From an uncultured Holophagales bacterium (GTDB lineage: Bacteria > Acidobacteriota > Thermoanaerobaculia > Multivoradales > UBA5704): a DNA stretch of 64,000 nucleotides. The notes under the pieces were generated by a model, which had not been told where the DNA came from, ran no database searches, and worked only from the letters and a program-made list of their open reading frames with translations. The position numbers and the translations under genes were made by a program. This document shows positions 32,986-48,598 of the stretch, piece after piece. The DNA lies in the NCBI GenBank assembly GCA_963842525.1, contig CAWJGT010000025.1, positions 224,001 through 288,000 on the forward strand. Reading direction: 5' to 3'. Positions within the stretch are counted from its first letter, which is position 1; each line of letters opens with the position of its first letter.

Positions 32986-33030
32986 AGCTCGCCTTGACGC
33001 GGCCAGACTCTATGGACCACGATCTTGTCA

Positions 33031-33273
33031 ATGATTACGACCGTCACCCAGAAGAACACGGCCACAATACCCGCCGAAGTACGACGGAAGTTTGGGATCA
33101 AGCCCGGCTGTAAGCTCGACTGGCAGCCGATTGAGGACAGAGGCGAGATTCTCGTCAGGGTCATTCCCGACCGTGGAGAGCGTGCGCGCCGCCTGCTGGG
33201 TTCCGGTCGCAAGTTCTCACCGGATTGCGACTCCGTGGCCGATCTTGTGGCAGAGCGCGCTGCGGAAGGTTGA
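33031..33273 (+). CDS. AbrB-type antitoxin (copy 1)
   Basis: TTVTQKNTATIPAEVRRKFGIKPG; near-identical to 34871..35113. Confidence 0.85.
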   Translation: MITTVTQKNTATIPAEVRRKFGIKPGCKLDWQPIEDRGEILVRVIPDRGERARRLLGSGRKFSPDCDSVADLVAERAAEG

Positions 33274-33278
33274 TGGGC

Positions 33279-33335
33279 TTGCGCTTCCTGCTCGATACCT
33301 CCGCACTGCTTGCCCACTTCCGCAAGGAGCGCGGC
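33279..33335 (+). pseudogene. vapC: Truncated VapC toxin 5' end
   Basis: RFLLDTSALLAHFRKE identical to the 35120 gene, then breaks off. Confidence 0.8.
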
Positions 33336-33341
33336 ACCTCT

Positions 33342-33737
33342 TCAAGGACTCCCCGGCCATTCGGCCCACTCACAGTAGGTCAGCAGGTCACGGTCCCTGG
33401 TCAGCAGAGTCGCTCCGCGTAGCGTTGCCTGGCTGGCGATCAGGCGATCGAAGGGGTCCCGTGTCCACGAGGCGGCGAGTGCGACGTCGATCACCTGAAG
33501 GAAAGGAAGATCGCAGATCTTGAGCGCGATCTCCTTCTCCAGTGTGTTGATGACGTGCTCTCCGGAGAACGTGACGCGGCGGATTTCATAGAGGTACTGG
33601 AGCTCGAGCTTGACCGCGGGAGAGATCAGCAGGTCGCTCTCCTCGAGGCGGGTCCGCACGCTCGCCGGCAGCAGGTTCACACGGTCCGAGAAGAGCCACG
33701 CAACGACATGGGTGTCGAGGTAGATCAGGGGCGCCAT
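33342..33737 (-). CDS. vapC: PIN-domain (VapC) toxin
   Basis: IYLDTHVVAW, RDPFDRLIA, LLTRD. Confidence 0.9.
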   Translation of the reverse strand: MAPLIYLDTHVVAWLFSDRVNLLPASVRTRLEESDLLISPAVKLELQYLYEIRRVTFSGEHVINTLEKEIALKICDLPFLQVIDVALAASWTRDPFDRLIASQATLRGATLLTRDRDLLTYCEWAEWPGSP

Positions 33738-33946
33738 TCTGCGGACCAGTCGATGTGGACCAGATCCTCAGGATCGCCGACGATGAGGTCGCGTGGCTTC
33801 AGGTTCGCCAGCTTGCTCTTGGGCTCGACCGCCGCGATGCGGAGGAGCTTCCCTTTTCGCTCGATGTCGACGGGCACGCCGGTCTCCAGGATCTCGTCCA
33901 GGATCCGGTAGATGTTCTCGCGCAAGGCAGAGGCTCGAAGCGGCAT
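33725..33946 (-). CDS. Phd/YefM-type antitoxin
   Basis: ASALRENIYRILDEILETGVPVDIERKG; overlaps the vapC start; upstream TTGACA-17-TACCCT with TCGTACGA palindromes. Confidence 0.85.
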   Translation of the reverse strand: MPLRASALRENIYRILDEILETGVPVDIERKGKLLRIAAVEPKSKLANLKPRDLIVGDPEDLVHIDWSAEWRP

Positions 33947-34237
33947 ACGGGGCACCCCCAAGGCCCGTTCCGAGGGTACAGCCAAGTCGTACGAGTGTCA
34001 AGTAGAGGTCGTACGCCCTAAAGCGCCAAGAAAACCCAAGCCCTTGCCCCTCCAGTCTCGGCGGAAGCGGGTCCACCGCGGGAAACACCTGATCGACACA
34101 TCGCAGGAGCGCTGACCGGGAGGCTTCGTCTGGTCCTAACCAAGAAACTACCCAAGAACCGAACTAGGTGGCTGGCACCCCGGCTGGCTGGGCACACCCT
34201 GTTCAAGAAACGCCGCCGCGGTATCTAACCCTCGCGG

Positions 34238-34628
34238 TGGATCTGCGGCTTCGCCAATGCGGAAGGTGGTGTGCTGGTCATCGGACGCGTTGACCGAGGC
34301 GTAGCCGTCGGGTTGCCGGCCTGGTTGCCCCGGAAGTCACCGAGGAAGCTACAGGCAAAACGCCGGTAGAAACTGGCAAAACGCCGGTAGAAACTGGCAA
34401 AACGCCGGTAGAAACTGGCAAAACGCCGGTAGAAACTGGGAAAATGCCGGTAGAAACCGAAGAGACGCCGGTAGAAACGCCGGACAGGATCGTCGAGCTG
34501 CTTCGTGCAAATCCGTACATGACCCTGGCCGAGGTGGCCGAGGAGATCGGTAAGTCACAGAGGGCCGTGGAGACCGCCAAATTGGTCGGTGAGGGGCGGC
34601 TTCGCTACGTGGGTCCCCGTAAAAGTGG
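34238..34628 (+). pseudogene. Internally deleted AlbA_2/ATP-binding/HTH paralogue
   Basis: WICGFANAEGGVLVIG fragment fused to (KTPVETG)n and the HTH IVELLRANPYMTLAEVAEEIG..YVGPRKSG; homologous to the 38491 gene. Confidence 0.75.
34356..34480 (+). repeat. 21-bp tandem repeat AAAACGCCGGTAGAAACTGGC (about 5 copies)
   Basis: Directly visible tandem array. Confidence 0.9.
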
Positions 34629-34870
34629 CCGCGCAAGGCAGAGGCTCGAAGCGGCATAGGACCGTTCCCAACGTACAGCTCGGTCGTACGAGTGTCAAGA
34701 GGGAATCGTACGCCCTGAAGTGCGCCAAGAAACCCAAGCCCTTGACCCTCCAGGGCTTAGCGCGTTTTTTATCGGACCCTATGGGGCTGCCCGAACTAGG
34801 TGGCTGGCACCCCGGCCACCTGCACCTACTTACCTTGACGCGGTCTGCTCCATGGAACACAATAGTTTCC

Positions 34871-35113
34871 ATGATTACGACGGTCACCCAGAAGAACATG
34901 GTCACAATACCCGCCGAAGTAGGACGAAAGTTTGGGATCAAGCCTGGGTGGAGGCTCGACTGGCAGCCGGTGGAAGGCAAAGACGAAATTCTCGTCAGGG
35001 TCATTCCCGATCGCGGAGAGCGTGCGCGCCGCCTGCTGGGTTCCGGTCGCAGGTTCTCACCGGATCGCGACTCCGTGGCCGAGCTTGTGGCAGAGCGCGC
35101 TACGGAAGGTTGA
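34871..35113 (+). CDS. AbrB-type antitoxin (copy 2)
   Basis: TTVTQKNMVTIPAEVGRKFGIKPG; upstream of an intact vapC. Confidence 0.88.
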   Translation: MITTVTQKNMVTIPAEVGRKFGIKPGWRLDWQPVEGKDEILVRVIPDRGERARRLLGSGRRFSPDRDSVAELVAERATEG

Positions 35114-35119
35114 TGGGCC

Positions 35120-35539
35120 GTGCGCTTCCTGCTCGATACCTCCGCACTACTTGCCCACTTCCGCAAGGAGCACGGTGGTGCTCGCGTCCAAACGTTGTTC
35201 GAGGAGGGCGACTCCGAGATCCTGGCTGCCAGTATCTCGCTGACCGAGTTTGCCCGGCGTCTGCGCGAGCTGGGCGCAACGGTCGATGAGGCTCGCCGTA
35301 CGGTTGAGGACTACCGAGAGTTGCTGGACGAGGTCGTCTCGGTCGATGAAAAAGTGGCTCTCACCGCCTTCTATATCGTCTGCGAAATGACGGAGCGGCT
35401 ACCCCTTGCCGACGCTCTGATCACAGCGGCCGCTCGCGAACGGGAGGCCCGCCTGGTTCACCGCGATCACCACATGGCGACGATTCCGGCCAGCGTTGTG
35501 GAGCAGATCGACCTCGCGAAGGAACCGGACCCGCGGTGA
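35120..35539 (+). CDS. vapC: PIN-domain (VapC) toxin
   Basis: FLLDTSAL, SLTEF, LADALI, LVHRD. Confidence 0.9.
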   Translation: MRFLLDTSALLAHFRKEHGGARVQTLFEEGDSEILAASISLTEFARRLRELGATVDEARRTVEDYRELLDEVVSVDEKVALTAFYIVCEMTERLPLADALITAAAREREARLVHRDHHMATIPASVVEQIDLAKEPDPR

Positions 35540-35731
35540 GGGGCTAATGCCTGTTCACCTCTTCGCCCTGGCCCCGCGTCCGGCGCAGCTTGAGGCCGAA
35601 GATAAGGAGCGCGCCCAAATCTGCCGCTGCAGTTGCCCTTGGGTCAACTGGCTTCCGCTGAAGGGTAGGACTATACTTTTAGCATGAGCCTGCCGAACAG
35701 GTGGAATCTCAAACCGGAAAGGCTAATACCG

Positions 35732-35944
35732 ATGAAACCATTTGTCGCAAGATTTGGGCGTTCAATCTCGCCCAAGACAGCCGGATTTCGCTCCGTGCGG
35801 TACGATGTCGAACGAGAGAGTACTGTGCTAGCCGAAAATTCTCTTCTCGCTATTGAGTCTCCCAACGTCCTATCTGAGGCTACGGGCAGTATGTGCACGA
35901 GAGCTGACGAAGATCCTACGGCTGATGAGGCAACAGACCGGTAA
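35732..35944 (+). CDS. Graspetide (ATP-grasp RiPP) precursor 1
   Basis: Leader MKPFVARF..RYD; core TGSMCTRADEDPTADEATDR. Confidence 0.85.
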   Translation: MKPFVARFGRSISPKTAGFRSVRYDVERESTVLAENSLLAIESPNVLSEATGSMCTRADEDPTADEATDR

Positions 35945-35962
35945 TCTGGGAAGGAGAGCAAT

Positions 35963-36166
35963 ATGCGGCCTTTTATAGCGCGATATGCAGTAGCCCCAGA
36001 TCGAAATCCAATTCCCTCGCTGTACAACTACGATCCTGAGCAAGAAATTAGCGTCTCTCGAGGTGAGCCAGTCATCGGAGATCGAGCGCAAGCCATGGCG
36101 CTCACGGGAAGCTTGGTCACCTTGGCTGATAGAGACCCTACTCGGGATGAGGCAACAGACAGGTAA
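35963..36166 (+). CDS. Graspetide precursor 2
   Basis: Leader MRPFIARY..NYD; core TGSLVTLADRDPTRDEATDR; stop overlaps the ligase start. Confidence 0.88.
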   Translation: MRPFIARYAVAPDRNPIPSLYNYDPEQEISVSRGEPVIGDRAQAMALTGSLVTLADRDPTRDEATDR

Positions 36167-37131
36167 TGATTCTTATAGTTTCCAATACGCAGGACATCAC
36201 ATGTGATTTCGTTGTAAGAGAACTTCGCAGACGGCACAGAGACTTTGCTCGGCTAAACATGGACGAATTTCCTCGGCTCGCGTCAGGTGTTGCAACGGCC
36301 GGAACGGGATTTCCCGAGCGAGCCGAGATAAGATGGTCTAATAGACATAAAGTCCTACGCTTCAGTGATGTCAGCTCTGTTCTCTATCGGAGGCCGGTGC
36401 CGCCCGTACCAGACGATGCCATCCAAGACGAAGCGCTCAGAAAATTCTGTACCGATGAGAGTTATGATTTCTTGCGGGGGCTTTTATTTTCATTGGATTG
36501 TCACTGGATCAGCCATCCAGATGCAATCAGAAGAGCGGAGCACAAACTATACCAAGCTAGAATCGCCAGCAAGGTCGGTCTTACAATGCCACGGACTCTT
36601 GTAACCAACGACCCTGATGAGGTCTTGGGCTTCTTCGATGCATGCTCTGGTAGAATGGTCGCAAAGTGTTTATACATGGGCTTTATCGACAGCAAGAAAG
36701 CCCCGGCAATGATTTTCACCAGTAACGTATCAAGAGAGGATCTTGATGATGTGGAATCGGTTCGGTTTACTCCGACTATATTTCAAGAGTATGTTGACAA
36801 GGAATTCGATTTGCGGGTGACAATAGTAGGTGAGAAGGTTTTTACTGCAAGAATTGACGCAGCGACTCCTCCGGGTACACCAGACTGGCGAGCCTGCGGT
36901 CCCGAGGAACTTTGTCACTCTCCGTACTCTCTACCAGCTTCAATAGAGCGAGCGTGCATCGACTTAGTCCATCTTCTTGAGCTTGACTTTGGCGCGATTG
37001 ATCTTGCAGTAGATAAAGAGGGGAATTTCTTCTTCCTGGAGATTAATCCCAACGGTCAATGGGCATGGCTGGAGGCGATACTTCCAATCAGCGCAGCTCT
37101 CGTGGACCGACTTGAGGAACTGGGGAGATGA
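36166..37131 (+). CDS. MvdC/MvdD-family ATP-grasp RiPP ligase (graspetide synthetase)
   Basis: KLYQ..A..VGL.MP.TLVTNDP, FQEYVDKEFDLRVTIVG, DWR, FGAIDL, FLEINPNGQWAWLE. Confidence 0.92.
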   Translation: MILIVSNTQDITCDFVVRELRRRHRDFARLNMDEFPRLASGVATAGTGFPERAEIRWSNRHKVLRFSDVSSVLYRRPVPPVPDDAIQDEALRKFCTDESYDFLRGLLFSLDCHWISHPDAIRRAEHKLYQARIASKVGLTMPRTLVTNDPDEVLGFFDACSGRMVAKCLYMGFIDSKKAPAMIFTSNVSREDLDDVESVRFTPTIFQEYVDKEFDLRVTIVGEKVFTARIDAATPPGTPDWRACGPEELCHSPYSLPASIERACIDLVHLLELDFGAIDLAVDKEGNFFFLEINPNGQWAWLEAILPISAALVDRLEELGR

Positions 37132-38063
37132 GGTTTACTCGTTACCTTGGCAGGCTACTGCTGAATTTGAAAGGTCGGCTTCCACTAAACGGAGATTGGC
37201 TATTTGTAACTGAAAGCGTTTCAGGCGAGAAGCAGATTGATGCCGCCGATGAATATCAGGCGCCGAGCATGGTGCTGAAACTATTATCTGGGACTGTCAC
37301 GCCCGAGACAACCAAGCTAATATACGAGAGGGTGAAATCCTATGAGGGCACTGTAAACGATATTGCAAATAGGGTCTATGATAAGTCGAAGGTAATTTTT
37401 GGCGCTGCTTCCTTTGCATCAACTATAATTCTGGCTCTTGGATCGACACTCCTTCCTCCCTTGCTCGTGAGCTCAGTTTGGCTCAGAGTCGTCGGCGCCG
37501 CATTGTCGTTCTTTCTTGTTTTTCACCTTAGTCGAGCGTTGATCATCGCGGCCGAGGTTATGATAAGAGAGCTCATGGTCCGCGAAACGCCAGGAGAGCT
37601 GATAGAGTTGGGCGAGAATGATGAAGGCGGCGCTCTTAGAGAGCTGATTGCGAAAGTATTGGCGTATGCGATCCAGACTCAAACACTTGGCCTTGAAAAG
37701 CTCAATCGGCTGATTATTGCGCAACATTCTTTTCGATATGCACTAGTATTTTATTTCGCATTGGCGGTGCTCAGCGTTGTCGTACGTCTTGGCGAAAGCA
37801 ATATTGAGGGTACTAGCGCAGGAGCGGTTGCCGAAGAGATAAAGGACTTGAAGAATAAGGTAGAGGCGACCAGCGCAAGGCAAGGGAAGCTAGCCTCGGC
37901 AGTGGATACTCTGGAGAAGGAACACGCGCTCATACAACGGGAACTGAGGGAATCTATTGAGTTGAGAAGGGCTGAGCTAGACTTTCTACGGATACTCGAG
38001 GCTCAACTAATGAGCGGGTTGGCCAACCGACAGCCTCCCGCTGCCACGAGAAAACAGCCCTGA
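37128..38063 (+). CDS. Membrane protein (3 TM plus C-terminal coiled coil), possibly Pycsar-effector-like
   Basis: Translationally coupled to the ligase; DKSK-TM-TM-loop-K..L..A-TM layout. Confidence 0.7.
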   Translation: MRFTRYLGRLLLNLKGRLPLNGDWLFVTESVSGEKQIDAADEYQAPSMVLKLLSGTVTPETTKLIYERVKSYEGTVNDIANRVYDKSKVIFGAASFASTIILALGSTLLPPLLVSSVWLRVVGAALSFFLVFHLSRALIIAAEVMIRELMVRETPGELIELGENDEGGALRELIAKVLAYAIQTQTLGLEKLNRLIIAQHSFRYALVFYFALAVLSVVVRLGESNIEGTSAGAVAEEIKDLKNKVEATSARQGKLASAVDTLEKEHALIQRELRESIELRRAELDFLRILEAQLMSGLANRQPPAATRKQP

Positions 38064-38098
38064 AGCTGTTTTTTGAATACATTCTACCCTCCACGCGA

Positions 38099-38160
38099 GC
38101 GACCCGCCGGTCTACGATTTTGGCAGGGCAGGCTTGATGCTGACCTTCCGGGCTGCCCCC
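38099..38160 (+). pseudogene. Fragment duplicating part of the 38491 gene
   Basis: GACCCGCCGGTCTACGATTTTGGC..CTGACCTTCCG matches 39532-39590. Confidence 0.7.
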
Positions 38161-38490
38161 AATACGTTCCACCCGTTCCCATCCCAGCCCGGCAAGACGG
38201 TCCGCTGCAGCGGGGTGGCGGCAGTGCTGGGGCTGGTTGAGGGGAAACTGCCACGCGGGCACCTCGCCCGCTCGACCAGAGCGTCAAGTTCCCGGCTCAT
38301 GGCTTTTCACCTAGCACCGGCCGACATCCCCCGAACTCTGGTATCCTCATCCCAATACGGCTAACCGGTCGGCACCCGTATTCGGACTGCGCCGCCGACG
38401 CAGGATGGGGTTGGGCTGCGCAATGGTATGGACGCCGGCCGCCCCCTACGCGCCGATCAGGAGCCCGCTCACTGGGAGGATTCGCCTGGT

Positions 38491-39891
38491 ATGAAGGAAA
38501 GCCAGCAGGTCGAATGGAAGAGCTCGTGGCGTGACGAGTATCTGCGCTGGATCTGCGGCTTCGCCAATGCCGCGGGCGGTGTGCTGGTCCTCGGGCGGAA
38601 CGATAAGGGCGTAGCCGTCGGCGTGGACAATTCCCGCAAACTGCTGGAAGACCTGCCCAACAAGATCCGGGACGTGCTGGGCATCATGGCCGATGTCCAC
38701 CTCGTCAAGGAGGCGGGCAAGGAGCTGGTCGAAATCCACGTCGAGCCGTATCCCAGCCCCGTCAGCTACAAGGGGGAATACCACTACCGCAGCGGCAGCA
38801 CCAAGCAAGAGCTGAAGGGTCCGGCGCTGGAGCGGTTCCTGCTGAAGAAGCGCGGGCGTCACTGGGATGATGCGCCGGAGCCCTCGTTCACCGCACGATC
38901 ATGCAGCGCGGCAGCCTTGCGGCTGTTCAGGCAAAGGGCTGCAAAGAGCGGGCGCATGGACCCGATGGTGTTACGAGACAGCCGGGAGGTCGTTCTCGGC
39001 AACCTGGAGCTGGCCGAAAGGCATGGCCTCAAGCGCGCCGCCTGCCTGCTGTTCTCCGACCGCCCCGAGCAGTATGTGAGCGGCTCCTGGATCAAGATCG
39101 GCTTCTTCGTGACGGATGACGACCTCCGCTACCAAGACGAGGTGCACGGGAGCCTCTTCGAGCAGGTGGAAAAGACTCTCGAGCTCCTGCACACGAAGTA
39201 TCTCAAGGCCTACATCAGCTACCAGGGCTTGCATCGGCGGGAGACCTTCCTCTTCCCAACTGCCGCACTGCGCGAGGCCCTGCTCAACGCCGTGGTGCAC
39301 AAGGACTACAGCAGCGGCATCCCCATCCAGATCAGCGTGTATGACGATCAGATCGTCCTCTGGAATCCCGGTGACCTGCCGGAGAACTGGACGCTGAAAA
39401 AGCTGCTGGGCAAACACCCGTCCTGTCCCTTCAACCCACTGGTGGCGAATGCCTTCTTCCGGGCCGGCTACATCGAATCCTGGGGACGTGGCATCGAGAA
39501 GATCCACCGCGAGTGCCGGGAGCACGGGATCGATCCGCCGGTCTACGATTTCGGCATGGCGGGCCTGATGCTGACCTTCCGCGCCGACCCTGCGCACCTG
39601 CAAGCCTCTGCTCCGGAACTGGGCAGGGGCACTACCCCAATCACTACCCAAGAAACCGCCGGTACTACCCAAGAAACTACCCAAGAAACCGCCGGTACTA
39701 CCCAAGAAACTACCCAAGAAAGGGTTCTTGCTTTGTTGCGTGCCCAACCCTCGATTACTCGAAGGGAACTGGCAGGTAGACTGGGCTTAAGCGACAATGG
39801 CATCAAGTACCACTTGGAGAGGATGAAGACTGCCGGAGTGATTCGCCACGTGGGCGCAACCAAGTCCGGAAATTGGGAGGTCCTGAAGTGA
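38491..39891 (+). CDS. AlbA_2 (Schlafen-like) plus ATP-binding plus C-terminal HTH protein
   Basis: ESQQVEWKSSW, ICGFANAAGG, LREALLNAVVHKDY, IESWGRG, (TTQE)n linker, HTH..GNWEV. Confidence 0.9.
   Translation: MKESQQVEWKSSWRDEYLRWICGFANAAGGVLVLGRNDKGVAVGVDNSRKLLEDLPNKIRDVLGIMADVHLVKEAGKELVEIHVEPYPSPVSYKGEYHYRSGSTKQELKGPALERFLLKKRGRHWDDAPEPSFTARSCSAAALRLFRQRAAKSGRMDPMVLRDSREVVLGNLELAERHGLKRAACLLFSDRPEQYVSGSWIKIGFFVTDDDLRYQDEVHGSLFEQVEKTLELLHTKYLKAYISYQGLHRRETFLFPTAALREALLNAVVHKDYSSGIPIQISVYDDQIVLWNPGDLPENWTLKKLLGKHPSCPFNPLVANAFFRAGYIESWGRGIEKIHRECREHGIDPPVYDFGMAGLMLTFRADPAHLQASAPELGRGTTPITTQETAGTTQETTQETAGTTQETTQERVLALLRAQPSITRRELAGRLGLSDNGIKYHLERMKTAGVIRHVGATKSGNWEVLK
39643..39720 (+). repeat. 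In-frame 12/21-bp tandem repeats (ACTACCCAAGAA)
   Basis: Encodes the TTQETAGTTQETTQE linker. Confidence 0.85.
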
Positions 39892-39904: not shown

Positions 39905-40232
39905 ATGACCTGCGACGTAAGGCAGCGGACCTGCGGGCGTGCAGAAGCGGACCCGCAGGTCCGTCCACATGACCCGCAGGTCAGCCCTCGTGACCCGCAG
40001 CTTCGTCAGCCGGCCCTGCAGGTCAGCCTGCGCGACCTGCGGGTCAACCCACTTGCCCCGCGCGTCAACCCGTGTGACCCGCAGGTTGGAGTGCGTGACC
40101 CGCAGGTCAGCCCGAGTGACCTGCGGGTCCATCCACGCACGCCGCAGGTCCGTCAGCGCACGCCGCAGGTCCGTCGGCGCACGCCGCAGGTCCGTCGGCG
40201 CACGCCGCAGGTCCGTCGGCGCACGCCGCAGC
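39905..40232. repeat. Degenerate 21-bp-period tandem array
   Basis: GACCCGCAGGTC/GACCTGCGGGTC units ending in (CGCACGCCGCAGGTCCGTCGG)n. Confidence 0.85.
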
Positions 40233-40234
40233 GG

Positions 40235-40525
40235 CTACACCGCATGGAGCACGATCTCCGCCGGATCTTCCGGGCTCTTCAGGATGCGTACGATCTGGGT
40301 GCGTAGACGCACCGGGTCCGCCGGTGGCTGCTCCAGGTCCGTCCACAGGGCGAACCACCTGCCGCCAAAGCAGACGACCTGCAACGCAGCCTCGTCGGGC
40401 GTGTACGCGGCCGTGGCATCGGCCGGGCTGAACTGGATCTGAACGACGCGGTCGTACAGTCGCCGGCGCAGCGCTTCGCTGAACCGATCGAGGTCCAACA
40501 GGATAGACTGGGACACGTCGGGCAT
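40235..40525 (-). CDS. Hypothetical protein
   Basis: MPDVSQSILLDLDRFSEAL..; GAGGAGG RBS. Confidence 0.6.
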   Translation of the reverse strand: MPDVSQSILLDLDRFSEALRRRLYDRVVQIQFSPADATAAYTPDEAALQVVCFGGRWFALWTDLEQPPADPVRLRTQIVRILKSPEDPAEIVLHAV

Positions 40526-40750
40526 AGGCCCCTCCTCTGCTCGGCTGGGCCCCGGCGGATCTGCACTCCGCCGGGGCCGACTTGTTTCGAGCTCAGGCCC
40601 TCCTTCCGGGAGAGCCGCCTTGTCCGTTGTCGCCTCGAGGCAGCCACGAGTTCTCGCCATCGAGAACCGAAAGCACTTATAGCAGGTGATCCCGATTTGA
40701 GTCAATGGGACCGGAAATGGTATCCTCGATCCAACCGGAGGAGGATGACC

Positions 40751-41290
40751 ATGAGCCCGAAGCGAGACACCGAGGATCCTGTTCGGCAGGAGGTCGACCG
40801 CCTGATGGAGATGCTCCTCATCTTCGTCCGCACCCTGGGGTATGGCAACACGGAGATCGCGCGGCGGTCCAAGGTCCCGCACGCCAACGTTGGGAGGTAC
40901 TTCCGCGGGGAGTCCCGGGTGCCGCTCGACGTCGTGATCGCGGTCGTCCACGGGATCGGGCTGGACTTCGGAGAGTTCTTCGAGCTGGCCTATGCCGAGC
41001 AGCCGGCGGAGCCCACCGCGGCCCGGAAGAAGATCGAGCGCATCCTGCAGATCCTTCCCCTCCGGCATGCCGCTCCGGTGGAGCCGCCCGTCACCGCTGC
41101 GCAGCCGGAGCAGCGTCCGTCGCTGCCGCGCCCGGAGATCGAGAAGGTACTCGAAGACCTCCGGAAGGAGGTGAACGCCCTGCTCGACGCCCGCCAGGCC
41201 GGCAAGGCCGTCGCCACACCGCCCAAGCCGAAGGCCGGCCCCAAGCCCTCGAAGCCGAAATCCGGGAAGAAGCGCAACGACGAGAGCTGA
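40751..41290 (+). CDS. XRE-family HTH transcriptional regulator
   Basis: GYGNTEIARRSKVPHANVGRYFRGESRVPLDVV..IGLDFGEFF. Confidence 0.8.
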   Translation: MSPKRDTEDPVRQEVDRLMEMLLIFVRTLGYGNTEIARRSKVPHANVGRYFRGESRVPLDVVIAVVHGIGLDFGEFFELAYAEQPAEPTAARKKIERILQILPLRHAAPVEPPVTAAQPEQRPSLPRPEIEKVLEDLRKEVNALLDARQAGKAVATPPKPKAGPKPSKPKSGKKRNDES

Positions 41291-41356
41291 GCGGGGAGAG
41301 AGCGGGTCAGGTCCGTGGCTCGTCGTCCGAGTTTTGCCGGCCGTTGCAATCCCGGC

Positions 41357-42006
41357 TTACCGGAAGTGCCGCGGGCCGATCTGACGCTCTTTGCGCCGGA
41401 TGTGCGCGACCGTAGCCTCGATCATGTCCGGTGTCACAGCGCGGCGCCGGAAGAGCTCTTCGAGGAGTATCACTGAGGTCATGAATTCGCGATAGATTTC
41501 GATGGTCGCGAAGATCTCCCCCGCCGCCACAACCTCCTGCTCCGCGACATCGAGCTTGTCCTGGCTCAGGAGGACCATGGCGAGTTCCAGACGAGTAAGA
41601 GCCAGTGAGAACGGAAGGTCGGCCTCGGTGAAGCCCTTCTTCGCGTCGTTTAACGGACCATCTCCCTCTTGTCCTGGAAGCGAACGGCCCAGCTCCGCAT
41701 GAGGAGGGCTTCGTAGACGCCGAGCCCAGCCAGCGGAAGATTGCCGTCCCGCATCAGAGCCCGGACATCCCCTCCCGAGGCAAGAAGGGTCTGCGCCTTC
41801 CGGTACCGGGCGCGTTCGCTGATGGAAAGCTGCTGCAGGGAGCGAACGTGGAGGGGCGTGTCGAGCGCCACCTCATCACGAAGGTCCAGGTCGGAGGGCG
41901 CTGGCGGGCCTCCGCCCGTGGGCTGACCGCCCCACTGCTCGAACGAGTCGAGCGAAAGATCATCCTCTGCCCCTTCGCCGTGTGCGACGTGGTCTCGTTC
42001 GCTCAA
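41357..42006 (-). pseudogene. Internally deleted TPR-like protein
   Basis: N-part ..EALLMRSWAVRFQDKREMVR joined out of frame to C-part ..GFTEADLPFSLALTRLELAMVLL. Confidence 0.6.
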
Positions 42007-42116
42007 ATGGCGCCTCCTTGATGGGCGTGCATTTTCTCATATGGTGGGGAGGTTTTGAAGTCCCGCTCGAAAGGCGAGGCGGCTGAGCTCGCCGCCCCTC
42101 GTACCGGCTGAGGAGC

Positions 42117-42401
42117 TTAACCGCCGTTTGGGTCGATGCCGGGCCCTTCATCGCCTGGTGTCGTGCCACCGTTCGGGGCAACGCCTCCTTGAGCTCCTGG
42201 GGTGGCTTCCCCTCCTGCCGTGGGAGCCTCGCTCCAGGACCACAGAGCGGAGATCCCCTTCTCCCAGAGGCTGTCGAACCAGTCCCAGACGTGGACGGGA
42301 TTGGCGAGCTTGGCGGCTTGCGCCTGGGCGGGGCCGGCGAACGCCAGGCACGAGGCGAGGATTCCCACGAGCACGAGGCGAGAGAGATTGCGACGAGTCA
42401 T
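42117..42401 (-). CDS. Small secreted peptide ending GDEGPGIDPNGG
   Basis: GGAGGAGG RBS, signal peptide (AQA), Trp-rich helix, low-complexity linker. Confidence 0.75.
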   Translation of the reverse strand: MTRRNLSRLVLVGILASCLAFAGPAQAQAAKLANPVHVWDWFDSLWEKGISALWSWSEAPTAGGEATPGAQGGVAPNGGTTPGDEGPGIDPNGG

Positions 42402-42666
42402 ACCTGTCCTCCTCCGCCGCGGAACGAGCCGGGCCCGCATGGTCCGGCGCCCGCGGACGCGGCGTCTGTTGTCTGCCGTCGTGCCGCAGTCTGACAGCGT
42501 GCAGGGCGTCCATGCGGCGGCGGACTCTCCATGCCACTTAGGTGCTCTCCGGCCGGCAGGAGGGGACGGCGTTACGCGTAAGCGTTAAACCGACGCGAAG
42601 ATCGTGGCCTCTATGCGGTGCCTTGTAACCGTTGCACACAATCTTCAGAAAATACGTTCAACCCTG

Positions 42667-42694
42667 TTGACAACCCGCCCGTTTCTGCTAGAGT
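42667..42694 (+). promoter_or_regulatory. Sigma70-type promoter
   Basis: TTGACA-16-TAGAGT with extended -10 TG. Confidence 0.55.
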
Positions 42695-42818
42695 GACCTC
42701 TCTGAACGGTTTTGATCCGACAGAGCCATGAAGGCAATGAGCAGCGGAATTGAAAATTCGGGTGAATGACCCTTCCGGAGCCACTGACGGCCCGGATTTT
42801 TCCGAAAGGAGAAGCAGT

Positions 42819-43139
42819 ATGGATACGAAGCAGGTTTTCACGCAGCAGGGCGGTGTCGAGACGGGGCTGAAGGCGGAGCGGGTGCAGGAGCCGCTCGCGG
42901 CCACGCAGGCGTTCACACCTGGACTGGAGCTCCATCTCAAGGCGGAGCGGGTGCAGGAGCCGGCGTCGTTCGGGGCGGAGGCCAACGTGAGCTACAGCTA
43001 CGAGGTCACCGTCAATCAGCTCCAGCCGGTGACGATCGAGCTGCCTCTGTTCGTCGTCACTCTCCATGGACTTCCCGCCTGGGGTATCCCCGGCGGGCCG
43101 ACCGAGGCCGTGCCCGCTGCCGCGGGCCGGCGGGGATGA
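42819..43139 (+). CDS. Hypothetical protein with duplicated LKAERVQEP
   Basis: AAAGGAG RBS; internal direct repeat. Confidence 0.6.
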   Translation: MDTKQVFTQQGGVETGLKAERVQEPLAATQAFTPGLELHLKAERVQEPASFGAEANVSYSYEVTVNQLQPVTIELPLFVVTLHGLPAWGIPGGPTEAVPAAAGRRG

Positions 43140-43152
43140 AAGGAGGAAGGTT

Positions 43153-43530
43153 ATGCCCAGCATCAATTCGTTCGCCGACGTCCTGCGCGACTGGGAGGCG
43201 CTGCTTGCCGCGCTGCAGGATCATCCGGGGGTCCTGGTCACCCTCGAAGCCGAGCGGCTGGATCTGGAAGCGGATCTGGCGGCGGCGCGGGTCCTCAAGG
43301 CGCGCCAGGAGACGCAGACGGCCAGCCGGCAGGAGGTGACGCAGCAGATCAAGGCGGTGGTGAGCCACGGCAAGGGAGTGGCGATCGGGATTCGGGCCGT
43401 GGTGAAGGGCAAGATCGGGTATCGCAACGAACGGCTGGTCCAGTTCAAAGTGGCCCCGTCCCGCAAGCGGCCGCGCAAGCCGCCGGAGGTCGAGCCCACC
43501 GAGGAGGCCGCCGGTCCGGATGAGTCCTGA
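43153..43530 (+). CDS. Hypothetical helical protein (paralogue A)
   Basis: AGGAGG RBS; DWEALL..GYRNERLVQFKVAP shared with the next gene. Confidence 0.75.
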   Translation: MPSINSFADVLRDWEALLAALQDHPGVLVTLEAERLDLEADLAAARVLKARQETQTASRQEVTQQIKAVVSHGKGVAIGIRAVVKGKIGYRNERLVQFKVAPSRKRPRKPPEVEPTEEAAGPDES

Positions 43531-43534
43531 ACAA

Positions 43535-43566
43535 CCCGGGGGCGTGCTCCGGCACGCCCCCTTTTT
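43535..43566 (+). terminator. Rho-independent terminator
   Basis: GGGGGCGTGC-TCCG-GCACGCCCCC plus T-run; near-copy at 43983-44013. Confidence 0.75.
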
Positions 43567-43597
43567 CTGAATGCATCCTCAACAGAAAGGAACGAAT

Positions 43598-43969
43598 ATG
43601 CCAAAGAAAGCCTTGCAGGACTTCGTCGCAGACTGGGATGGCCTGCTCAGCGAGCTCCGAGCGACGACGTACGACATTCCGGACATCGAGCCCTTCCGCA
43701 TCGCCCTGGAAAAGGCTGTCCGGAAGACACGGGTCGCCAAGACCCGGCAGATGGCGTGCCAGATCGCCAGCCGGCTGGCGACGCGCTGGTTGGCCGAGGC
43801 GGTGGAAGAGGGCCGCGATGCGGCCATCGGGATGCGCTCCTATCTGAGGGGCCGCCTCGGCTACCGCAACGAGGATCTGGTCCGCTTCGGGGTGGCCCCG
43901 GTCCGCAAGCGCAAGCCGCGCGCCACACGCAAACCCACGCCGCCGAGCGTGGACCCCGCGGTCCACTGA
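43598..43969 (+). CDS. Hypothetical helical protein (paralogue B)
   Basis: DWDGLL..GYRNEDLVRFGVAP. Confidence 0.75.
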   Translation: MPKKALQDFVADWDGLLSELRATTYDIPDIEPFRIALEKAVRKTRVAKTRQMACQIASRLATRWLAEAVEEGRDAAIGMRSYLRGRLGYRNEDLVRFGVAPVRKRKPRATRKPTPPSVDPAVH

Positions 43970-44049
43970 TCTCCCCTCACCACCCCGGGGGCGTGCTCCG
44001 GCACGCTCTCCTTTGCCCCAGAACCTGGCAAGGATCAGGGTCAACGGAG

Positions 44050-45132
44050 TCACTCGATCGTCTGTGTGTTGACCTCAAGGCCGCTCGCTTCTCTCTTGAC
44101 CGGCTTCTCCCAGCGGACGCAGACCTCGATTCCCAGATGCGGAGCTGGCCACCGCAGCCAGTAGAAGAGGAAGCGCTGGGGCAGCTTCAGCGAAGAGGCT
44201 ATTTCGGCCCTGGCTGCCTCCGAGACCTGCTTGCCGGCGGCCGCATCACGCTCGAGAATGGCAGTGGCTCGTTGCTTGAGCCGGCGGACGCGGTTCAGCA
44301 TCTCGTCTGCTCCTTCGTCAGAGGCTCGGCCGAACCGTTCCTGGATGGAGATTTCGGGCAAGAGGGCGACTTCCTTACCCTCGAAACGGGCGGACTCCCG
44401 ATTGCGGAACTCCAAGGCAAGGTTGGCGATCTCGTCCTCCGGGATGTCTGTGAAGGCGAACAGATCCAGGTCGACAACGACGCAGACCTCAAGCTCGGAG
44501 GTCGGGATATCGATGGGGATGTCGAAGCGATCGAAGACAGGGGTCTTCGGCTCCTTCCACTGGACGTAATCGTGGAGCCCCAAGGTGATCTCGCGGGTCA
44601 GGAACCGGCCGCTGAGCGCATGAACGGCCAGGTCGGCGTTCTTGTAGGTCGTACCCACCGTGTCGACGTAGGAGCCGAGCGGCGGCGGCTCGAAGTCCTG
44701 AAGATGATCGGCGGACTTCTTGCCGTTCCAGACAGCGAAATAATTGAGCAACCACTGCTCCTTGAACCACTCGTACTCGCCCGTCTCGGGGCGGGGCTCG
44801 CTCTCCCGGTACGTCCGATGATAGGATTCGCGCTTCTCGGGCTTCATCTCGACGAAGCAGGGGAGCTTCTCACGAGGGGAGTTCAGGCGGAGGATCTCGA
44901 CTTGGCGGGAGAAGATGTTTCCTTCCCGGGTGACATAGACGGTATGGCGCGCAGACCGGCAGACATAGGGGGAATGCCTCCACTTGGCGGCAGTGGCGGC
45001 GACCATCTCCCGGATTACCGCCGAGTGCCGGCCCCGGGCATCCTTGGAACCCTGCTCCTGGGCGAGCTCTCCTACAAGGTCCCATAGGGATGAAGACATG
45101 CGGATCTGGCAGGTACGCTCGTTACGAGGCAT
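44050..45132 (-). CDS. Hypothetical protein with probable N-terminal ribbon-helix-helix
   Basis: RTCQIRMSSSLWDLVGELA...SAVIREMV strand-helix-helix pattern; AAGGAG RBS. Confidence 0.7.
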   Translation of the reverse strand: MPRNERTCQIRMSSSLWDLVGELAQEQGSKDARGRHSAVIREMVAATAAKWRHSPYVCRSARHTVYVTREGNIFSRQVEILRLNSPREKLPCFVEMKPEKRESYHRTYRESEPRPETGEYEWFKEQWLLNYFAVWNGKKSADHLQDFEPPPLGSYVDTVGTTYKNADLAVHALSGRFLTREITLGLHDYVQWKEPKTPVFDRFDIPIDIPTSELEVCVVVDLDLFAFTDIPEDEIANLALEFRNRESARFEGKEVALLPEISIQERFGRASDEGADEMLNRVRRLKQRATAILERDAAAGKQVSEAARAEIASSLKLPQRFLFYWLRWPAPHLGIEVCVRWEKPVKREASGLEVNTQTIE

Positions 45133-45219
45133 GCTCTCTCCTTGAAGCGGGAGGAATTGTACCCCAGATTTGTCAAGACGTTCCTGGGCGACAGTTTTCG
45201 GGCATAATTCCGAAGTCAT

Positions 45220-47928: not shown

Positions 47929-47991
47929 GCCTCCGGTTGGGAGACTACCGGGGAGCACACTTGTGTGCGCCAACGCTCTTGGGAGGAAAAC

Positions 47992-48570
47992 ATGTCGAGA
48001 CATGCGCTGTTGTGGGGAACGCTGGTTCTTTGGCTGTTGGTTCTGCCTCTCCCCTCTTTAGGACAAGCCTTCTCCGTTCCCATCTCTGACCGGGTTGTAG
48101 AGGGGGATCTCGCAATGCCGGACGGAAGCGCCGCGCATTTTACGGTTCGCGAAGGCTCGATGCTGACCGTCCGTAGCGAAGACGACGGGTATTGGTACGG
48201 GTTCATTCCCCAGGTGGTTCAAGGGGAGACGCTTCTCCTTACCCCCTTTGAGATTACTGAGATCAAGGGCCGCGCGCCCCATATCGCTCAAATTGGTAGT
48301 CCTATCGGTCAGGCTGACACCCTATCTCTAGAAGTTCCAACAAAAGACGGGACATTTCAGATTTCTCCCACATCAATTTCCCTCGGAAGCTTTCCGCGGC
48401 AAAAATTGGTAGAAATGAACAGCAAGTCGCCTCGCGAGCTTCAAAAGATATTTGGCGCTTCTGGAGGCGGCCTGTGCTGTGTAACCTGCGGCGGAATCAC
48501 TGTCTGTGGTGGGTCTGTTGTTATGTCGTGCGGTTCATGCGAAAGCGGCGGAGGCCGTCCGGCTGTGTAA
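47992..48570 (+). CDS. Secreted protein with Cys-rich C-terminal tail (paralogue 2)
   Basis: GGGAGG RBS; VVEG.L..PDG..AHF..REG.M.TVRSE shared with paralogue 1; tail CCVTCGGITVCGGSVVMSCGSC. Confidence 0.8.
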   Translation: MSRHALLWGTLVLWLLVLPLPSLGQAFSVPISDRVVEGDLAMPDGSAAHFTVREGSMLTVRSEDDGYWYGFIPQVVQGETLLLTPFEITEIKGRAPHIAQIGSPIGQADTLSLEVPTKDGTFQISPTSISLGSFPRQKLVEMNSKSPRELQKIFGASGGGLCCVTCGGITVCGGSVVMSCGSCESGGGRPAV

Positions 48571-48598
48571 ACCTGGCTGACGGCCAAGGATTTTCACG

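What the first reader, a model, noticed from the sequence alone, without database searches (positions are those of the whole stretch)
35732..38063. Graspetide operon coupled to a Pycsar-effector-like membrane protein inside a toxin-antitoxin island: candidate peptide-based defence system
Seen: a low-GC four-gene unit with overlapping stop/start codons from precursor 2 onward. It has two precursors (leaders PF[V/I]AR[F/Y]..YD; shared core TGSxxTxADxDPTxDEATDR), an MvdC/MvdD-type ATP-grasp ligase and a 3-TM protein with a coiled-coil tail. There is no protease, transporter or tailoring enzyme. The flanks are VapBC modules and an AlbA_2/Schlafen-like gene. Established: these ligases form Thr/Ser-Asp/Glu esters (or Lys amides), and TA/AlbA_2 genes mark defence islands. 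Inference: the TM protein layout (DKSK, two TMs, soluble loop, K..L..A, third TM) recalls PycTM/DUF5706 cell-death effectors. The cyclised peptide may stay intracellular and gate the membrane effector as signal or antitoxin, rather than being an exported protease inhibitor.
Basis: partly seen in the sequence, partly recalled or inferred. Interest (0 to 1): 0.85.

Follow-up and report, generated by a model that had tools for sequence, protein, structure and literature searches.

The report
Graspetide operon with PycTM-like membrane partner
A small foreign operon encodes two ring-forming peptide precursors, their cyclising enzyme and a tightly linked three-helix membrane protein that faintly resembles a known phage-defence effector; it usually sits among defence genes, so it may be an unrecognised peptide-based defence or export module.

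Summary
Window 35732-38063 (+) holds two precursors, an MvdC/MvdD-type ATP-grasp ligase and a 311-aa three-TM protein with a coiled-coil tail. Start and stop codons overlap. Cassette GC is 0.50 against 0.62-0.68 in the flanks.

The membrane gene follows the ligase gene directly in all 7 distinct related loci recovered, each with 2-3 precursors ending TGSxxTxAxxDPTxDExTDR.

The three-TM core is homologous (hhalign 96%) to the membrane protein of a second graspetide class with repeat-core precursors. Such membrane proteins were noted in print in 2022 and guessed to be transporters.

Similarity to PycTM is weak and depends on the alignment (hhalign 3-74%; no Pfam hit). It is in register along the module, and two independent faint pointers agree.

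The neighbours are defence-type genes in the window and in 4 of the 6 related loci (CBASS twice). One more has only a sub-threshold NACHT hit, and one contig lacks flanks.

Best reading (0.42): a mobile graspetide module whose membrane protein handles or exports the cyclised peptide.

Nothing was tested functionally.

The parts
35732..35944 (+). Graspetide precursor 1 (70 aa). Leader MKPFVARF...YD..E; the core ends TGSMCTRADEDPTADEATDR at the C-terminus.
   Evidence: ORF. Aligned with 15 homologous precursors. The alternative start at 35684 is not supported by the homologues. No Pfam or NCBIfam hit.
35963..36166 (+). Graspetide precursor 2 (67 aa). Leader MRPFIARY...YD..E; core TGSLVTLADRDPTRDEATDR. 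Strong GGAAGGAG ribosome-binding site upstream. Its stop shares one base with the ligase start.
   Evidence: Weak PF14404 Strep_pep match on the leader, E 0.01. The two core-coding stretches are a 64-nt direct repeat, 72% identical (D9).
36166..37131 (+). MvdC/MvdD-type ATP-grasp peptide macrocyclase (321 aa) with a pre-ATP-grasp domain.
   Evidence: TIGR04187 5.9e-78 (262 bits, below the curated 350), TIGR04185 1.5e-65, TIGR04184 2.2e-60. PF21068 1.6e-10. 2342 relatives at E<=1e-30.
37128..37391 (+). TM protein residues 1-88: predicted cytoplasmic N-domain with the family motif LPxNGDWLFVT, then a juxtamembrane helix ending in the D85-K86-x-K88 motif.
   Evidence: Conserved columns. Some family members carry CxxC...CxxC around the motif. 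Model.
37392..37796 (+). TM protein residues 89-223: three-TM core. TM1 about 89-113, TM2 about 118-146, a cytoplasmic helical loop, TM3 about 199-223. Conserved H133, R136, T/R/E 146-148, R191, N193 and Q199.
   Evidence: Hydropathy, model, conservation. hhalign against the A5 family gives 96.4% over 174 columns. Against PycTM it gives 3-74%.
37797..38063 (+). TM protein residues 224-311: one long helix 231-300 (coiled-coil tail). It is predicted to be periplasmic if the N-terminus is inside. Variable or absent in relatives.
   Evidence: Model. Only coiled-coil Pfam noise (DivIC, Snapin). Tail shortened in P0005 and in the A5 family. Charge counts.
34589..35539 (+). Upstream flank: VapB-like (MazE/AbrB fold) and VapC (PIN) pair.
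   Evidence: PF04014 5.8e-06 and PF01850 8.7e-11. VapB is duplicated at 33008-33278, 89% identical (D3).
38092..38159 (+). Downstream flank: 68-nt remnant, 85% identical to the 3' part of the intact AlbA_2 gene (39523-39590). It marks a recombination scar next to the cassette.
   Evidence: D6. A matching 5' remnant lies at 34234-34311 (D5).
38428..39891 (+). Downstream neighbour: AlbA_2 (Schlafen-type) plus HATPase_c_4 plus winged-helix protein, 487 aa.
   Evidence: PF04326 4.6e-14, PF13749 6.2e-20, PF13412 3.1e-11. PADLOC pAgo and Aga-associated models at 1.9e-14 and 7e-14.

Best explanation
This is a horizontally acquired, self-contained graspetide module.

Proposed steps:
1. The two precursors are recognised through their M-x-P-F-[IVA]-x-[RK]-[FY] leader.
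2. The ATP-grasp ligase cross-links side chains in the C-terminal core TGSxxTxAxxDPTxDExTDR. The expected links are Thr/Ser to Asp/Glu omega-esters, which neutralise the acidic tail. This is inferred from the enzyme family.
3. The translationally coupled three-TM protein is the dedicated membrane partner. Its conserved polar residues all lie on the predicted cytoplasmic face: the NGDW domain, D85/K86/K88, H133/R136, T/R/E146-148, R191/N193 and Q199.
4. I infer that this face receives the modified peptide and that the oligomerised protein passes it across the inner membrane. The variable C-terminal coiled coil would reach into the periplasm.
5. The product would be a secreted, target-binding (protease-inhibitor-type) conflict peptide, carried as cargo of mobile or defence islands.

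Shown here: gene content, synteny, homologies and genomic context. Inferred: ester chemistry, topology, peptide binding and export.
For: Ligase family.

Precursor family: invariant P3, Y23, D58, D62, E63 and near-invariant T53, D66, R67 across 16 precursors from 7 loci.

Linkage: the ligase gene lies directly upstream of the TM gene in 9 of 9 loci, 7 of them distinct, with gaps of 11 nt or less or overlaps. Further ligase/TM pairs share contig lengths or adjacent locus tags in Leptospira and a Thermoanaerobaculia MAG.

Wider association: the TM core is homologous to the membrane protein of a different graspetide class with repeat-core precursors, so the ligase plus 3TM pairing is old.

No other exporter: none was found in any cassette.

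Print: uncharacterised membrane proteins in graspetide loci that lack transporters were proposed to transport the peptide (PMC8939145, section 7, read).

Precursor diversity: there are 2-3 diverged precursor paralogues per locus. The non-ring positions vary, as expected for target-binding secreted products.

Topology: charge distribution fits N-in/C-out.

MGE cargo precedent: graspetide clusters occur as ICE cargo beside defence genes (bioRxiv 10.64898/2026.08.04.741601, passages read).
Against: - No transporter family matches the TM protein.
- A three-TM protein with no energy-coupling domain is an unusual exporter for an acidic 2-kDa peptide.
- No leader peptidase lies in any locus.
- Its only faint family likeness is to PycTM, a cell-killing effector.
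- Defence-type genes flank the cassette in the window and in 4 of the 6 related loci of this clade (L005, L011, L013, L014). L012 has only a sub-threshold NACHT hit.
- No RNA or product data exist.
Confidence: 0.42

Rival explanations
1. Peptide-based defence (abortive-infection or toxin-antitoxin-like) system. The TM protein is a PycTM-superfamily membrane effector, and the ligase-cyclised peptide stays in the cell and controls it. It could act as an activating signal made on infection, by analogy with cyclase-to-PycTM signalling. Or it could be a labile antitoxin, encoded first and in several copies, whose loss frees the effector.
For: Defence-type neighbours:
- Window: two PIN modules, a Phd pair and AlbA_2.
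- L005: HNH_2 genes on both sides.
- L011: CBASS E1-E2-JAB (PDLC00857, 7.9e-78) plus patatin directly upstream on the same strand, and an SNF2 helicase plus mad2-type methylase downstream.
- L013: ORC-CDC6-like ATPase plus metallophosphatase.
- L014: bacterial HORMA, SMODS CD-NTase, SprT-like and HTH genes.
- L022 (second class): AbiEii.

PycTM likeness:
- Layout shared.
- Merged A2+A5 profile against 36 PycTM modules: hhalign 74.1%, P 2.8e-5, 150 columns in register. The six reversed-sequence comparisons with PycTM scored 16.6-22.4 against 42.1.
- Homologue P0187 carries a precomputed PF18967.6 label.
- The ESM Atlas PycTM-bearing cluster scores 0.87 for residues 1-230.

Other: sporadic, foreign cassette (1 strong hit in 401 genomes of the phylum; GC3). 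The gene order, peptide first and membrane protein last, resembles antitoxin-toxin operons.
Against: - No Pfam or PADLOC PycTM hit in 61 of 61 family members, or in the own-genome scan.
- Other hhalign runs gave only 3.3-58.6%.
- The PycTM model has a long loop with a beta-hairpin that this family lacks.
- PycTM modules also occur as HD-domain fusions in 166 of 401 genomes of one phylum, so the module is not only a suicide effector.
- Several diverged precursor copies are not expected for a signal or antitoxin.
- One second-class locus (L056) has no obvious defence gene nearby; by my reading of the ORF translations it sits among metal-resistance genes (not run against Pfam).
- There were no hits in IMG/VR.
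- The neighbour sample is small and my definition of a defence gene is loose.
Confidence: 0.33
2. The TM protein is a biosynthetic partner, membrane scaffold or self-immunity protein. It anchors or stabilises the ligase-precursor complex at the membrane, or protects the producer, without itself transporting the peptide or killing the cell.
For: - Partner-protein-dependent graspetide synthetases are now known (PMC13097080, abstract and section 7 read).
- A membrane-protein scaffold for microviridin biosynthesis is cited in PMC8939145 (reference 17, seen).
- Linkage is strict and translation is coupled.
- The conserved N-terminal cytoplasmic domain could dock the ligase.
Against: - The known partner proteins are soluble and unrelated.
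- Most graspetide ligases, including the three others in this genome, are not known to need such a partner.
- Characterised graspetides are protease inhibitors, which need no membrane immunity protein (statement in PMC8939145, background).
Confidence: 0.15
3. The adjacency is incidental, or the cassette is decaying. On this view the TM gene is an unrelated island gene.
For: The surrounding region is a mosaic of duplicated and broken genes: VapB duplication, AlbA_2 fragments and an IS66 transposase.
Against: - The same order and spacing occur in 7 distinct loci with TM identity down to 31%.
- All four frames are intact.
- The family is conserved across 61 representative clusters.
- The fold is confident.
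Confidence: 0.03

Closest known systems
Graspetide (omega-ester peptide) clusters with MvdC/MvdD-type ATP-grasp macrocyclases; nearest curated model TIGR04187 (GRASP_SAV_5884)
   Same: - Ligase family and pre-ATP-grasp domain.
- A proline-hydrophobic-hydrophobic...aromatic leader motif, like microviridin PFFARFL (motif described in PMC8939145, section 5).
- A C-terminal core rich in Thr/Ser and Asp/Glu, and several precursor copies.
   Different: - The score is below the curated cut-off of every equivalog (262 against 350 bits).
- The core TGSxxTxAxxDPTxDExTDR matches no curated precursor model.
- There is no methyltransferase, ABC/C39 exporter, SPASM enzyme or acetyltransferase.
- A dedicated three-TM protein is always present.
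- I could not assign a published group number because supplements are closed.
[quoted passage not shown] 2022, PMC8939145, section 7
   Same: - A membrane protein in the same directon as the ATP-grasp gene, in loci without a known transporter.
- The window protein's core is homologous (96.4%, E 1.3e-9) to the 3TM protein of repeat-core graspetide loci L022 and L056, which look like that type.
   Different: - The window family adds an N-terminal NGDW domain and a long C-terminal coiled coil.
- It serves single-core precursors of a different motif.
- Whether A5 or A2 are literally cluster 18 or 40 could not be checked because supplements are closed.
- In the sections and passages I read, the paper gives no link to PycTM or to defence islands.
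PycTM (PF18967), the three-TM effector of Pycsar anti-phage systems
   Same: - Layout: a juxtamembrane helix ending in a D-(x)-K-A motif that runs into TM1, a TM2 hairpin, a cytoplasmic helical insert, a basic helix and then TM3.
- It is encoded next to the enzyme that makes a small ligand.
- It sits in a defence-island setting.
   Different: - No HMM match.
- Profile-profile support is unstable (3-74%).
- No nucleotide cyclase is adjacent.
- The PycTM loop with the NLLFFG motif and beta-hairpin is missing.
- This family has extra N- and C-terminal domains.
Partner-protein-dependent graspetide biosynthesis (rosaritide MirC; Carter et al. 2026, PMC13097080)
   Same: A strictly co-occurring, non-enzymatic-looking protein in a graspetide cluster.
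   Different: By the abstract, that partner copurifies with the ligase as a catalytically active complex, and section 7 describes the co-occurring protein as a divergent PpiC-type PPIase. The protein here is an integral membrane protein of another family.

Membership tests
Graspetide biosynthetic gene cluster | ATP-grasp macrocyclase of the MvdC/MvdD type with a pre-ATP-grasp domain | tested here: met
   TIGR04187 5.9e-78, TIGR04185 1.5e-65, TIGR04184 2.2e-60; PF21068 1.6e-10.
Graspetide biosynthetic gene cluster | Adjacent precursor(s) with a conserved leader motif and a core holding Thr/Ser donors and Asp/Glu acceptors | tested here: met
   Two precursors in the window and 16 across 7 loci. 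Leader M-x-P-F, YD..E, core TGSxxTxAxxDPTxDExTDR.
Graspetide biosynthetic gene cluster | Side-chain ester or amide macrocycles in the product | not testable with these tools
   Needs mass spectrometry of the co-expressed precursor and ligase.
TIGR04187 GRASP_SAV_5884 subfamily | Score at or above the curated cut-off (350 bits) | tested here: not met
   262.2 bits. It is a related but separate clade.
PycTM (PF18967) | Match to the family HMM at the gathering score (27.2 bits) | tested here: not met
   No hit for the window protein at E<=10. PF18967 is not among the 25 most-matched of the 161 families hit by the 61 family members at E<=1 (only those 25 were listed). The whole-genome PF18967 scan does not hit this gene. 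No PADLOC PycTM model appears among the 25 of 35 families listed.
PycTM (PF18967) | Remote homology by profile-profile comparison | tested here: inconclusive
   hhalign runs:
- A2 vs A4: 6.7%.
- A5 vs A4: 3.3%.
- A2 vs A8: 12.4%.
- A2 vs 36 PycTM modules: 58.6%, P 9.5e-5.
- A5 vs the same 36: 14.2%.
- Merged A2+A5 vs the same 36: 74.1%, P 2.8e-5, 150 columns.
- Six reversed-sequence comparisons with PycTM: scores 16.6-22.4.
Other pointers: precomputed PF18967.6 label on homologue P0187; ESM Atlas scores 0.80 and 0.87.
PycTM (PF18967) | Three-TM layout with a D-x-K-A motif before TM1 and a basic helix before TM3 | tested here: met
   AF2 models of both proteins and alignments. This is likeness of layout only.
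Pycsar system | Adjacent pyrimidine cyclase (PycC) | tested here: not met
   No cyclase lies in the cassette or its flanks in the window, or beside the gene in L005 and L010-L015.
SLATT domain effectors | Match to a SLATT family model | tested here: inconclusive
   No SLATT family is listed for the window protein at E<=10. Only the first 25 of 161 families were shown for the 61 members. No profile-profile test was run.
Makarova 2022 cluster 18/40 membrane proteins of graspetide loci | Membrane protein in one directon with the ATP-grasp gene, in a locus lacking a known transporter | tested here: met
   The definition was read in PMC8939145, section 7.
Makarova 2022 cluster 18/40 membrane proteins of graspetide loci | Sequence membership in the published cluster | not testable with these tools
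   The cluster members are in supplementary files, which are closed.
Known anti-phage defence system | Match to a model of a known or candidate system | tested here: not met
   PADLOC gave 0 families for the precursors, ligase and TM protein. The 61 members gave only scattered hits, which I read as coiled-coil-driven.
Known anti-phage defence system | Recurrent location beside known defence genes in unrelated genomes | tested here: met
   Window, L005, L011, L013, L014 and L022 have such neighbours. L012 has only a sub-threshold NACHT hit. L056 has none by my reading of its ORFs. L010 has one unannotated flanking ORF and L015 has no usable flank. The sample is small and there was no matched control.
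Known anti-phage defence system | Protection against phage, or conditional toxicity | not testable with these tools
   Needs experiments.

The most novel reading that the evidence does not exclude
This could be a new class of anti-phage system in which a ribosomal peptide is the ligand of a membrane-disrupting effector of the PycTM superfamily. The peptide would be cyclised by an ATP-grasp ligase and kept inside the cell. It would act either as an infection-triggered signal or as a labile, multi-copy 'RiPP antitoxin'. That would be peptide second-messenger logic in place of a nucleotide one.
Probability: 0.3. Interest if true: 0.9.

Novelty: new variant of a known kind. Interest (0 to 1): 0.62.

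Why it matters
According to PMC8939145 (2022), all graspetides characterised by then are protease inhibitors, and the membrane proteins in their loci remained unstudied.

This work defines a compact three-component module: precursors, ligase and a PycTM-like 3TM protein. The module recurs across distant bacteria, is mobile, and repeatedly lies next to CBASS, Abi, TA and nuclease genes.

If the membrane protein is an exporter, it is a new minimal RiPP export device. If it is an effector, it would be the first defence system I know of that uses a modified ribosomal peptide as its ligand. It would also link RiPP chemistry to abortive infection.

Either outcome can be tested directly with four small genes.

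My searches of the held library found no paper linking graspetides or ATP-grasp ligases to PycTM or to phage defence.

Tried and rejected
- Single-sequence scans of genome contigs with the TM protein and with the ligase found nothing.
- The A2 alignment was too divergent for pattern scanning (error), so I used the A1 and A3 subsets instead.
- IMG/VR scan with A3: no relatives.
- Foldseek against PDB and BFVD: no match at E<=0.001.
- Complex prediction (ligase, precursor and TM residues 1-230, with the TM protein as partner): score 0.00, 'no answer'. It counts neither for nor against binding.
- The look-up of sequencing runs: no RNA holder listed. There was one soil-metagenome DNA run with 0.20 of the words, which I did not lay.
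- Promoter and terminator scans around the cassette were at the chance level.
- The A5 profile has no match in the window's own genome.
- The column-shuffle null was mis-parsed: it printed aligned-column counts, not scores. I discard it.
- I did not run a SLATT profile-profile comparison.
- I could not assign the precursors to a published graspetide group, or the A5 family to cluster 18, because supplements are closed.
Full report
**1. Observation**

ORF listing shows four co-directional genes:
- precursor 1 at 35732-35944 (a longer frame opens at 35684)
- precursor 2 at 35963-36166
- a 321-aa protein at 36166-37131
- a 311-aa protein at 37128-38063

The junctions read TAATG and ATGA, so translation is probably coupled from precursor 2 onward.

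The cassette is compositionally foreign. Its GC is 0.50, against 0.62 for both flanks and 0.68 for ftsA/ftsZ. Its GC3 is 0.47-0.51, against 0.84-0.94 for ftsA, ftsZ and the next gene.

The 321-aa protein is an MvdC/MvdD-type ATP-grasp peptide maturase: TIGR04187 5.9e-78, TIGR04185 1.5e-65, TIGR04184 2.2e-60, PF21068 1.6e-10. All scores are below the curated equivalog cut-offs, so it belongs to a separate clade.

- VapB/VapC at 34589-35539
- a PIN/Phd pair at 33342-33985 (-)
- an AlbA_2/HATPase_c_4/HTH gene at 38428-39891

The region is a mosaic. VapB is duplicated, AlbA_2 gene fragments lie on both sides of the cassette (34234-34311 and 38092-38159), and an IS66 transposase lies at 46368-47768. 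The island starts right after ftsZ and a histidine-phosphatase gene.

**2. The membrane protein**

It has no match in Pfam, NCBIfam or PADLOC beyond coiled-coil noise.

Hydropathy gives a double hydrophobic block at 89-146 and a third at about 200-223.

An AF2 model built on 61 relatives is confident (mean pLDDT 92.3). It has one long helix 59-114 (a juxtamembrane part running into TM1), TM2 at 117-146, a helical insert, helix 166-223 (ending as TM3) and a 70-residue helix at 231-300.

All conserved residues lie on the side predicted to be cytoplasmic:
- LPxNGDWLFVT
- D85-K86-x-K88
- H133 and R136
- T/R/E 146-148
- R191, N193 and Q199

The charge pattern fits N-in/C-out. Some relatives carry CxxC...CxxC around the NGDW motif, which suggests a zinc-ribbon origin.

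The family is small. It has 5 clusters in the word-indexed search of 5.8 billion proteins. The exhaustive search of 1.84 billion proteins found 61 representatives at E<=0.001, 43 of them at E<=1e-10.

**3. Conserved linkage**

Scans with family alignments returned 9 loci, 7 of them distinct. L005, L008 and L009 gave identical tblastn matches and count as one Thermoanaerobaculia locus. The others are five metagenome contigs and an Ignavibacteria MAG.

In 9 of 9 loci the ligase homologue (49-75% identical) lies directly upstream of the TM homologue (31-51% identical). Gaps are 11 nt or less, or the genes overlap.

Six of the 7 distinct loci carry 2-3 precursors upstream. L012 is cut off inside the ligase gene.

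The 16 precursors align as one family. They share the leader M-x-P-F-[IVA]-x-[RK]-[FY], a YD...E motif, and a core TGSxxTxAxxDPTxDExTDR that ends the protein. The ring-capable residues are conserved and the other positions vary.

Further support comes from the protein tables. The TM and ligase relatives carry adjacent locus tags in a Thermoanaerobaculia MAG. They also share contig lengths of 13,905 bases and, for Leptospira sanjuanensis, 86,952 bases.

The cassette is sporadic:
- 1 strong hit (the window's own genome) in 401 genomes of the window's phylum
- 2 hits in 401 genomes of the phylum of G401
- none in IMG/VR

**4. A second graspetide class with a related membrane protein**

A weak hit in the phylum survey (L022) is another cluster. 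It holds a 119-aa precursor with three repeated Thr/Glu/Asp cores, a 308-aa ATP-grasp ligase and an overlapping 226-aa three-TM protein.

Its family (A5, 10 sequences) aligns to the window family with hhalign probability 96.4%, E 1.3e-9, over 174 columns that cover the whole three-TM core. A single-sequence run gave 91%. L056, in the phylum of G401, has the same arrangement.

So the pairing of a graspetide ligase with this three-TM module is older and wider than the window's clade.

Makarova et al. [quoted passage not shown] They suggest peptide transport because those loci lack transporters. They also list a cluster 40 of unclear role (PMC8939145, section 7). The A5 type probably corresponds to one of these, but I could not check because supplements are closed.

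Carter et al. 2026 describe 43 graspetide groups and partner-protein dependence (PMC13097080, abstract and section 7). I saw no mention of this family there.

**5. Is it PycTM-like?**

*Against*
- No PF18967 hit for the window protein at E<=10. PF18967 is not among the 25 most-matched families listed for the 61 family members at E<=1.
- No PF18967 hit on this gene in the whole-genome scan.
- No PF18967 among the 25 of 27 families listed for the 10 A5 members at E<=10.
- No PADLOC PycTM model among the families listed.
- hhalign gave 6.7% for A2 against 6 PycTM proteins, 3.3% for A5 against the same set and 12.4% for A2 against 21.
- The AF2 model of a PycTM protein (mean pLDDT 80.7) has a long loop with a beta-hairpin that this family lacks.

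*For*
- The PycTM proteins I fetched share the layout: a helix ending A-D-x-K-A that runs into TM1, then TM2, a soluble insert, K-Y-R...L-R and TM3.
- With 36 PycTM modules, hhalign gave 58.6% (P 9.5e-5, 53 columns) for A2 and 14.2% (145 columns) for A5.
- A merged A2+A5 profile gave 74.1% (P 2.8e-5, score 42.1) over 150 columns, in register from the juxtamembrane helix to TM3.
- The six reversed-sequence comparisons with PycTM scored 16.6-22.4.
- The database's precomputed Pfam column lists PF18967.6 for P0187, the L022 protein.
- The ESM Atlas lists a cluster with PycTM on 11% of its members. It scores 0.80 at rank 26 for the whole protein and 0.87 at rank 4 among named clusters for residues 1-230. 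The tool rates scores under 0.9 as leads only.

I put a shared superfamily at roughly 60%, and membership of PF18967 as not met.

The PycTM module is not only a suicide effector. It was found in 166 of 401 genomes of the phylum of G401, mostly in open frames of about 400 aa. The four I read are fused to an HD-type N-terminal domain, judged by its conserved motifs; I did not run Pfam on them.

**6. Neighbourhood**

The window and 4 of the 6 related loci of this clade have defence-type neighbours:
- Window: TA modules and AlbA_2.
- L005: HNH_2 genes on both sides, with PADLOC HNH models at 3e-14 and 3e-18.
- L011: a CBASS E1-E2-JAB fusion (7.9e-78) plus patatin immediately upstream on the same strand. 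Downstream are an SNF2 helicase with ZorD/DpdE/BrxH-like matches and a mad2/DUF6094 methylase.
- L013: an ORC-CDC6-like ATPase plus a metallophosphatase.
- L014: bacHORMA_1, a SMODS CD-NTase, and SprT-like and HTH genes. I recall this arrangement as type III CBASS with CapP/CapH. DUF932 and a PD-(D/E)XK nuclease lie on the other side.

L012 has a NACHT-like hit at only 6e-4, below the curated cut-off. L010 has one unannotated 200-aa ORF downstream, and L015 has no usable flank.

For the second class, L022 lies beside AbiEii. L056 lies among what look, from the ORF translations, like metal-efflux and metal-binding genes (not run against Pfam).

This is the pattern used to nominate defence systems. 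But the sample is small, my criterion is loose and there is no matched control. Graspetide clusters are also known ICE cargo next to defence genes (bioRxiv 10.64898/2026.08.04.741601, passages read).

**7. Mechanism and weighing**

Shown: a mobile three-component module with strict synteny.

Inferred: the ligase makes Thr/Ser to Asp/Glu esters in the conserved core, and the membrane protein meets the product at its conserved cytoplasmic face.

- Export or handling of a secreted conflict peptide (0.42). It is favoured by RiPP precedent, the published reading, the multiple diverged precursors and the periplasmic tail.
- A peptide-controlled PycTM-like effector (0.33). It is favoured by the genomic context, the faint PycTM likeness, the lack of any energy-coupling or peptidase component, and the antitoxin-like gene order.
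- A scaffold, partner or immunity role (0.15).
- Chance adjacency (0.03). It is contradicted by the synteny.

The complex prediction gave no answer and no RNA data were found.

**8. Novelty**

The ligase and the general association of graspetide loci with membrane proteins are known.

Four things were not found in print in my searches:
- this precursor family
- the NGDW/3TM/coiled-coil protein
- its homology to the membrane proteins of repeat-core loci
- the PycTM likeness together with the recurrent defence-island setting

Supplements that may catalogue the clade were closed.

I rate it a new variant of a known kind, with a 0.3 chance of being the first peptide-ligand defence system.

Noticed in passing
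window 39950-40222 and 34323-34490: There are two arrays of 21-nt tandem repeats, with 10 and 6 copies. The first lies in an open frame (39905-40306) and encodes heptad PQV-type repeats just after the AlbA_2 gene. The second lies inside a decayed AlbA_2-type gene. Related 33-nt repeats lie inside the intact gene at 39628-39726.
   Followed up: no
window 33008-33334 and 34848-35175: A VapB gene plus the first 60 nt of VapC is duplicated 1.84 kb apart (89-93% identical). The first copy's VapC is cut short, and a Phd/PIN pair on the opposite strand follows it.
   Followed up: partly
window 34234-34311 and 38092-38159: Remnants, 81-85% identical to the 5' and 3' parts of the intact AlbA_2 gene (38428-39891), bracket the VapBC and graspetide segment. 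It looks as if a paralogous AlbA_2 gene was split by insertions.
   Followed up: partly
L026-L055 (phylum of G401): PycTM modules occur in 166 of 401 genomes of this phylum, mostly in open frames of about 400 aa. The four I read are fused to an HD-type N-terminal domain, judged by motifs and not by a Pfam run. That is far too common for a sporadic defence gene.
   Followed up: no
proteins P0164, P0165, P0166, P0170, P0173, P0175 and others of alignment A2: Some members of the TM family carry CxxC...CxxC pairs on either side of the NGDW motif. This suggests the N-domain derives from a zinc ribbon that the window's protein has lost.
   Followed up: no
L011 109-3500 and L014 313-2976: In two unrelated metagenome loci the cassette abuts a CBASS operon. 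In L011 an E1-E2-JAB fusion plus patatin ends 19 nt before precursor 1. In L014 the HORMA, CD-NTase, SprT-like and HTH genes are divergent from the cassette.
   Followed up: partly
own genome: G000 C3:1649078-1649974, C33:18033-18935, C1:709907-710836 (L002-L004): The genome encodes three more graspetide-type ATP-grasp ligases, 31-32% identical to the window's. None has a TM-family or A5-type gene elsewhere in the genome.
   Followed up: no
L014 6496-7584 (-): A second, RimK/D-Ala-D-Ala-ligase-type ATP-grasp gene lies about 0.6 kb downstream of the TM gene on the other strand, after a small NlpC/P60-like ORF.
   Followed up: no
window 40697-45219 and 47905-49909: A run of open frames has host-like GC3 for some and low GC3 for others, and no Pfam match (7 of the 10 proteins scanned had none). 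This is part of the same variable island that ends near the IS66 transposase at 46368-47768.
   Followed up: no
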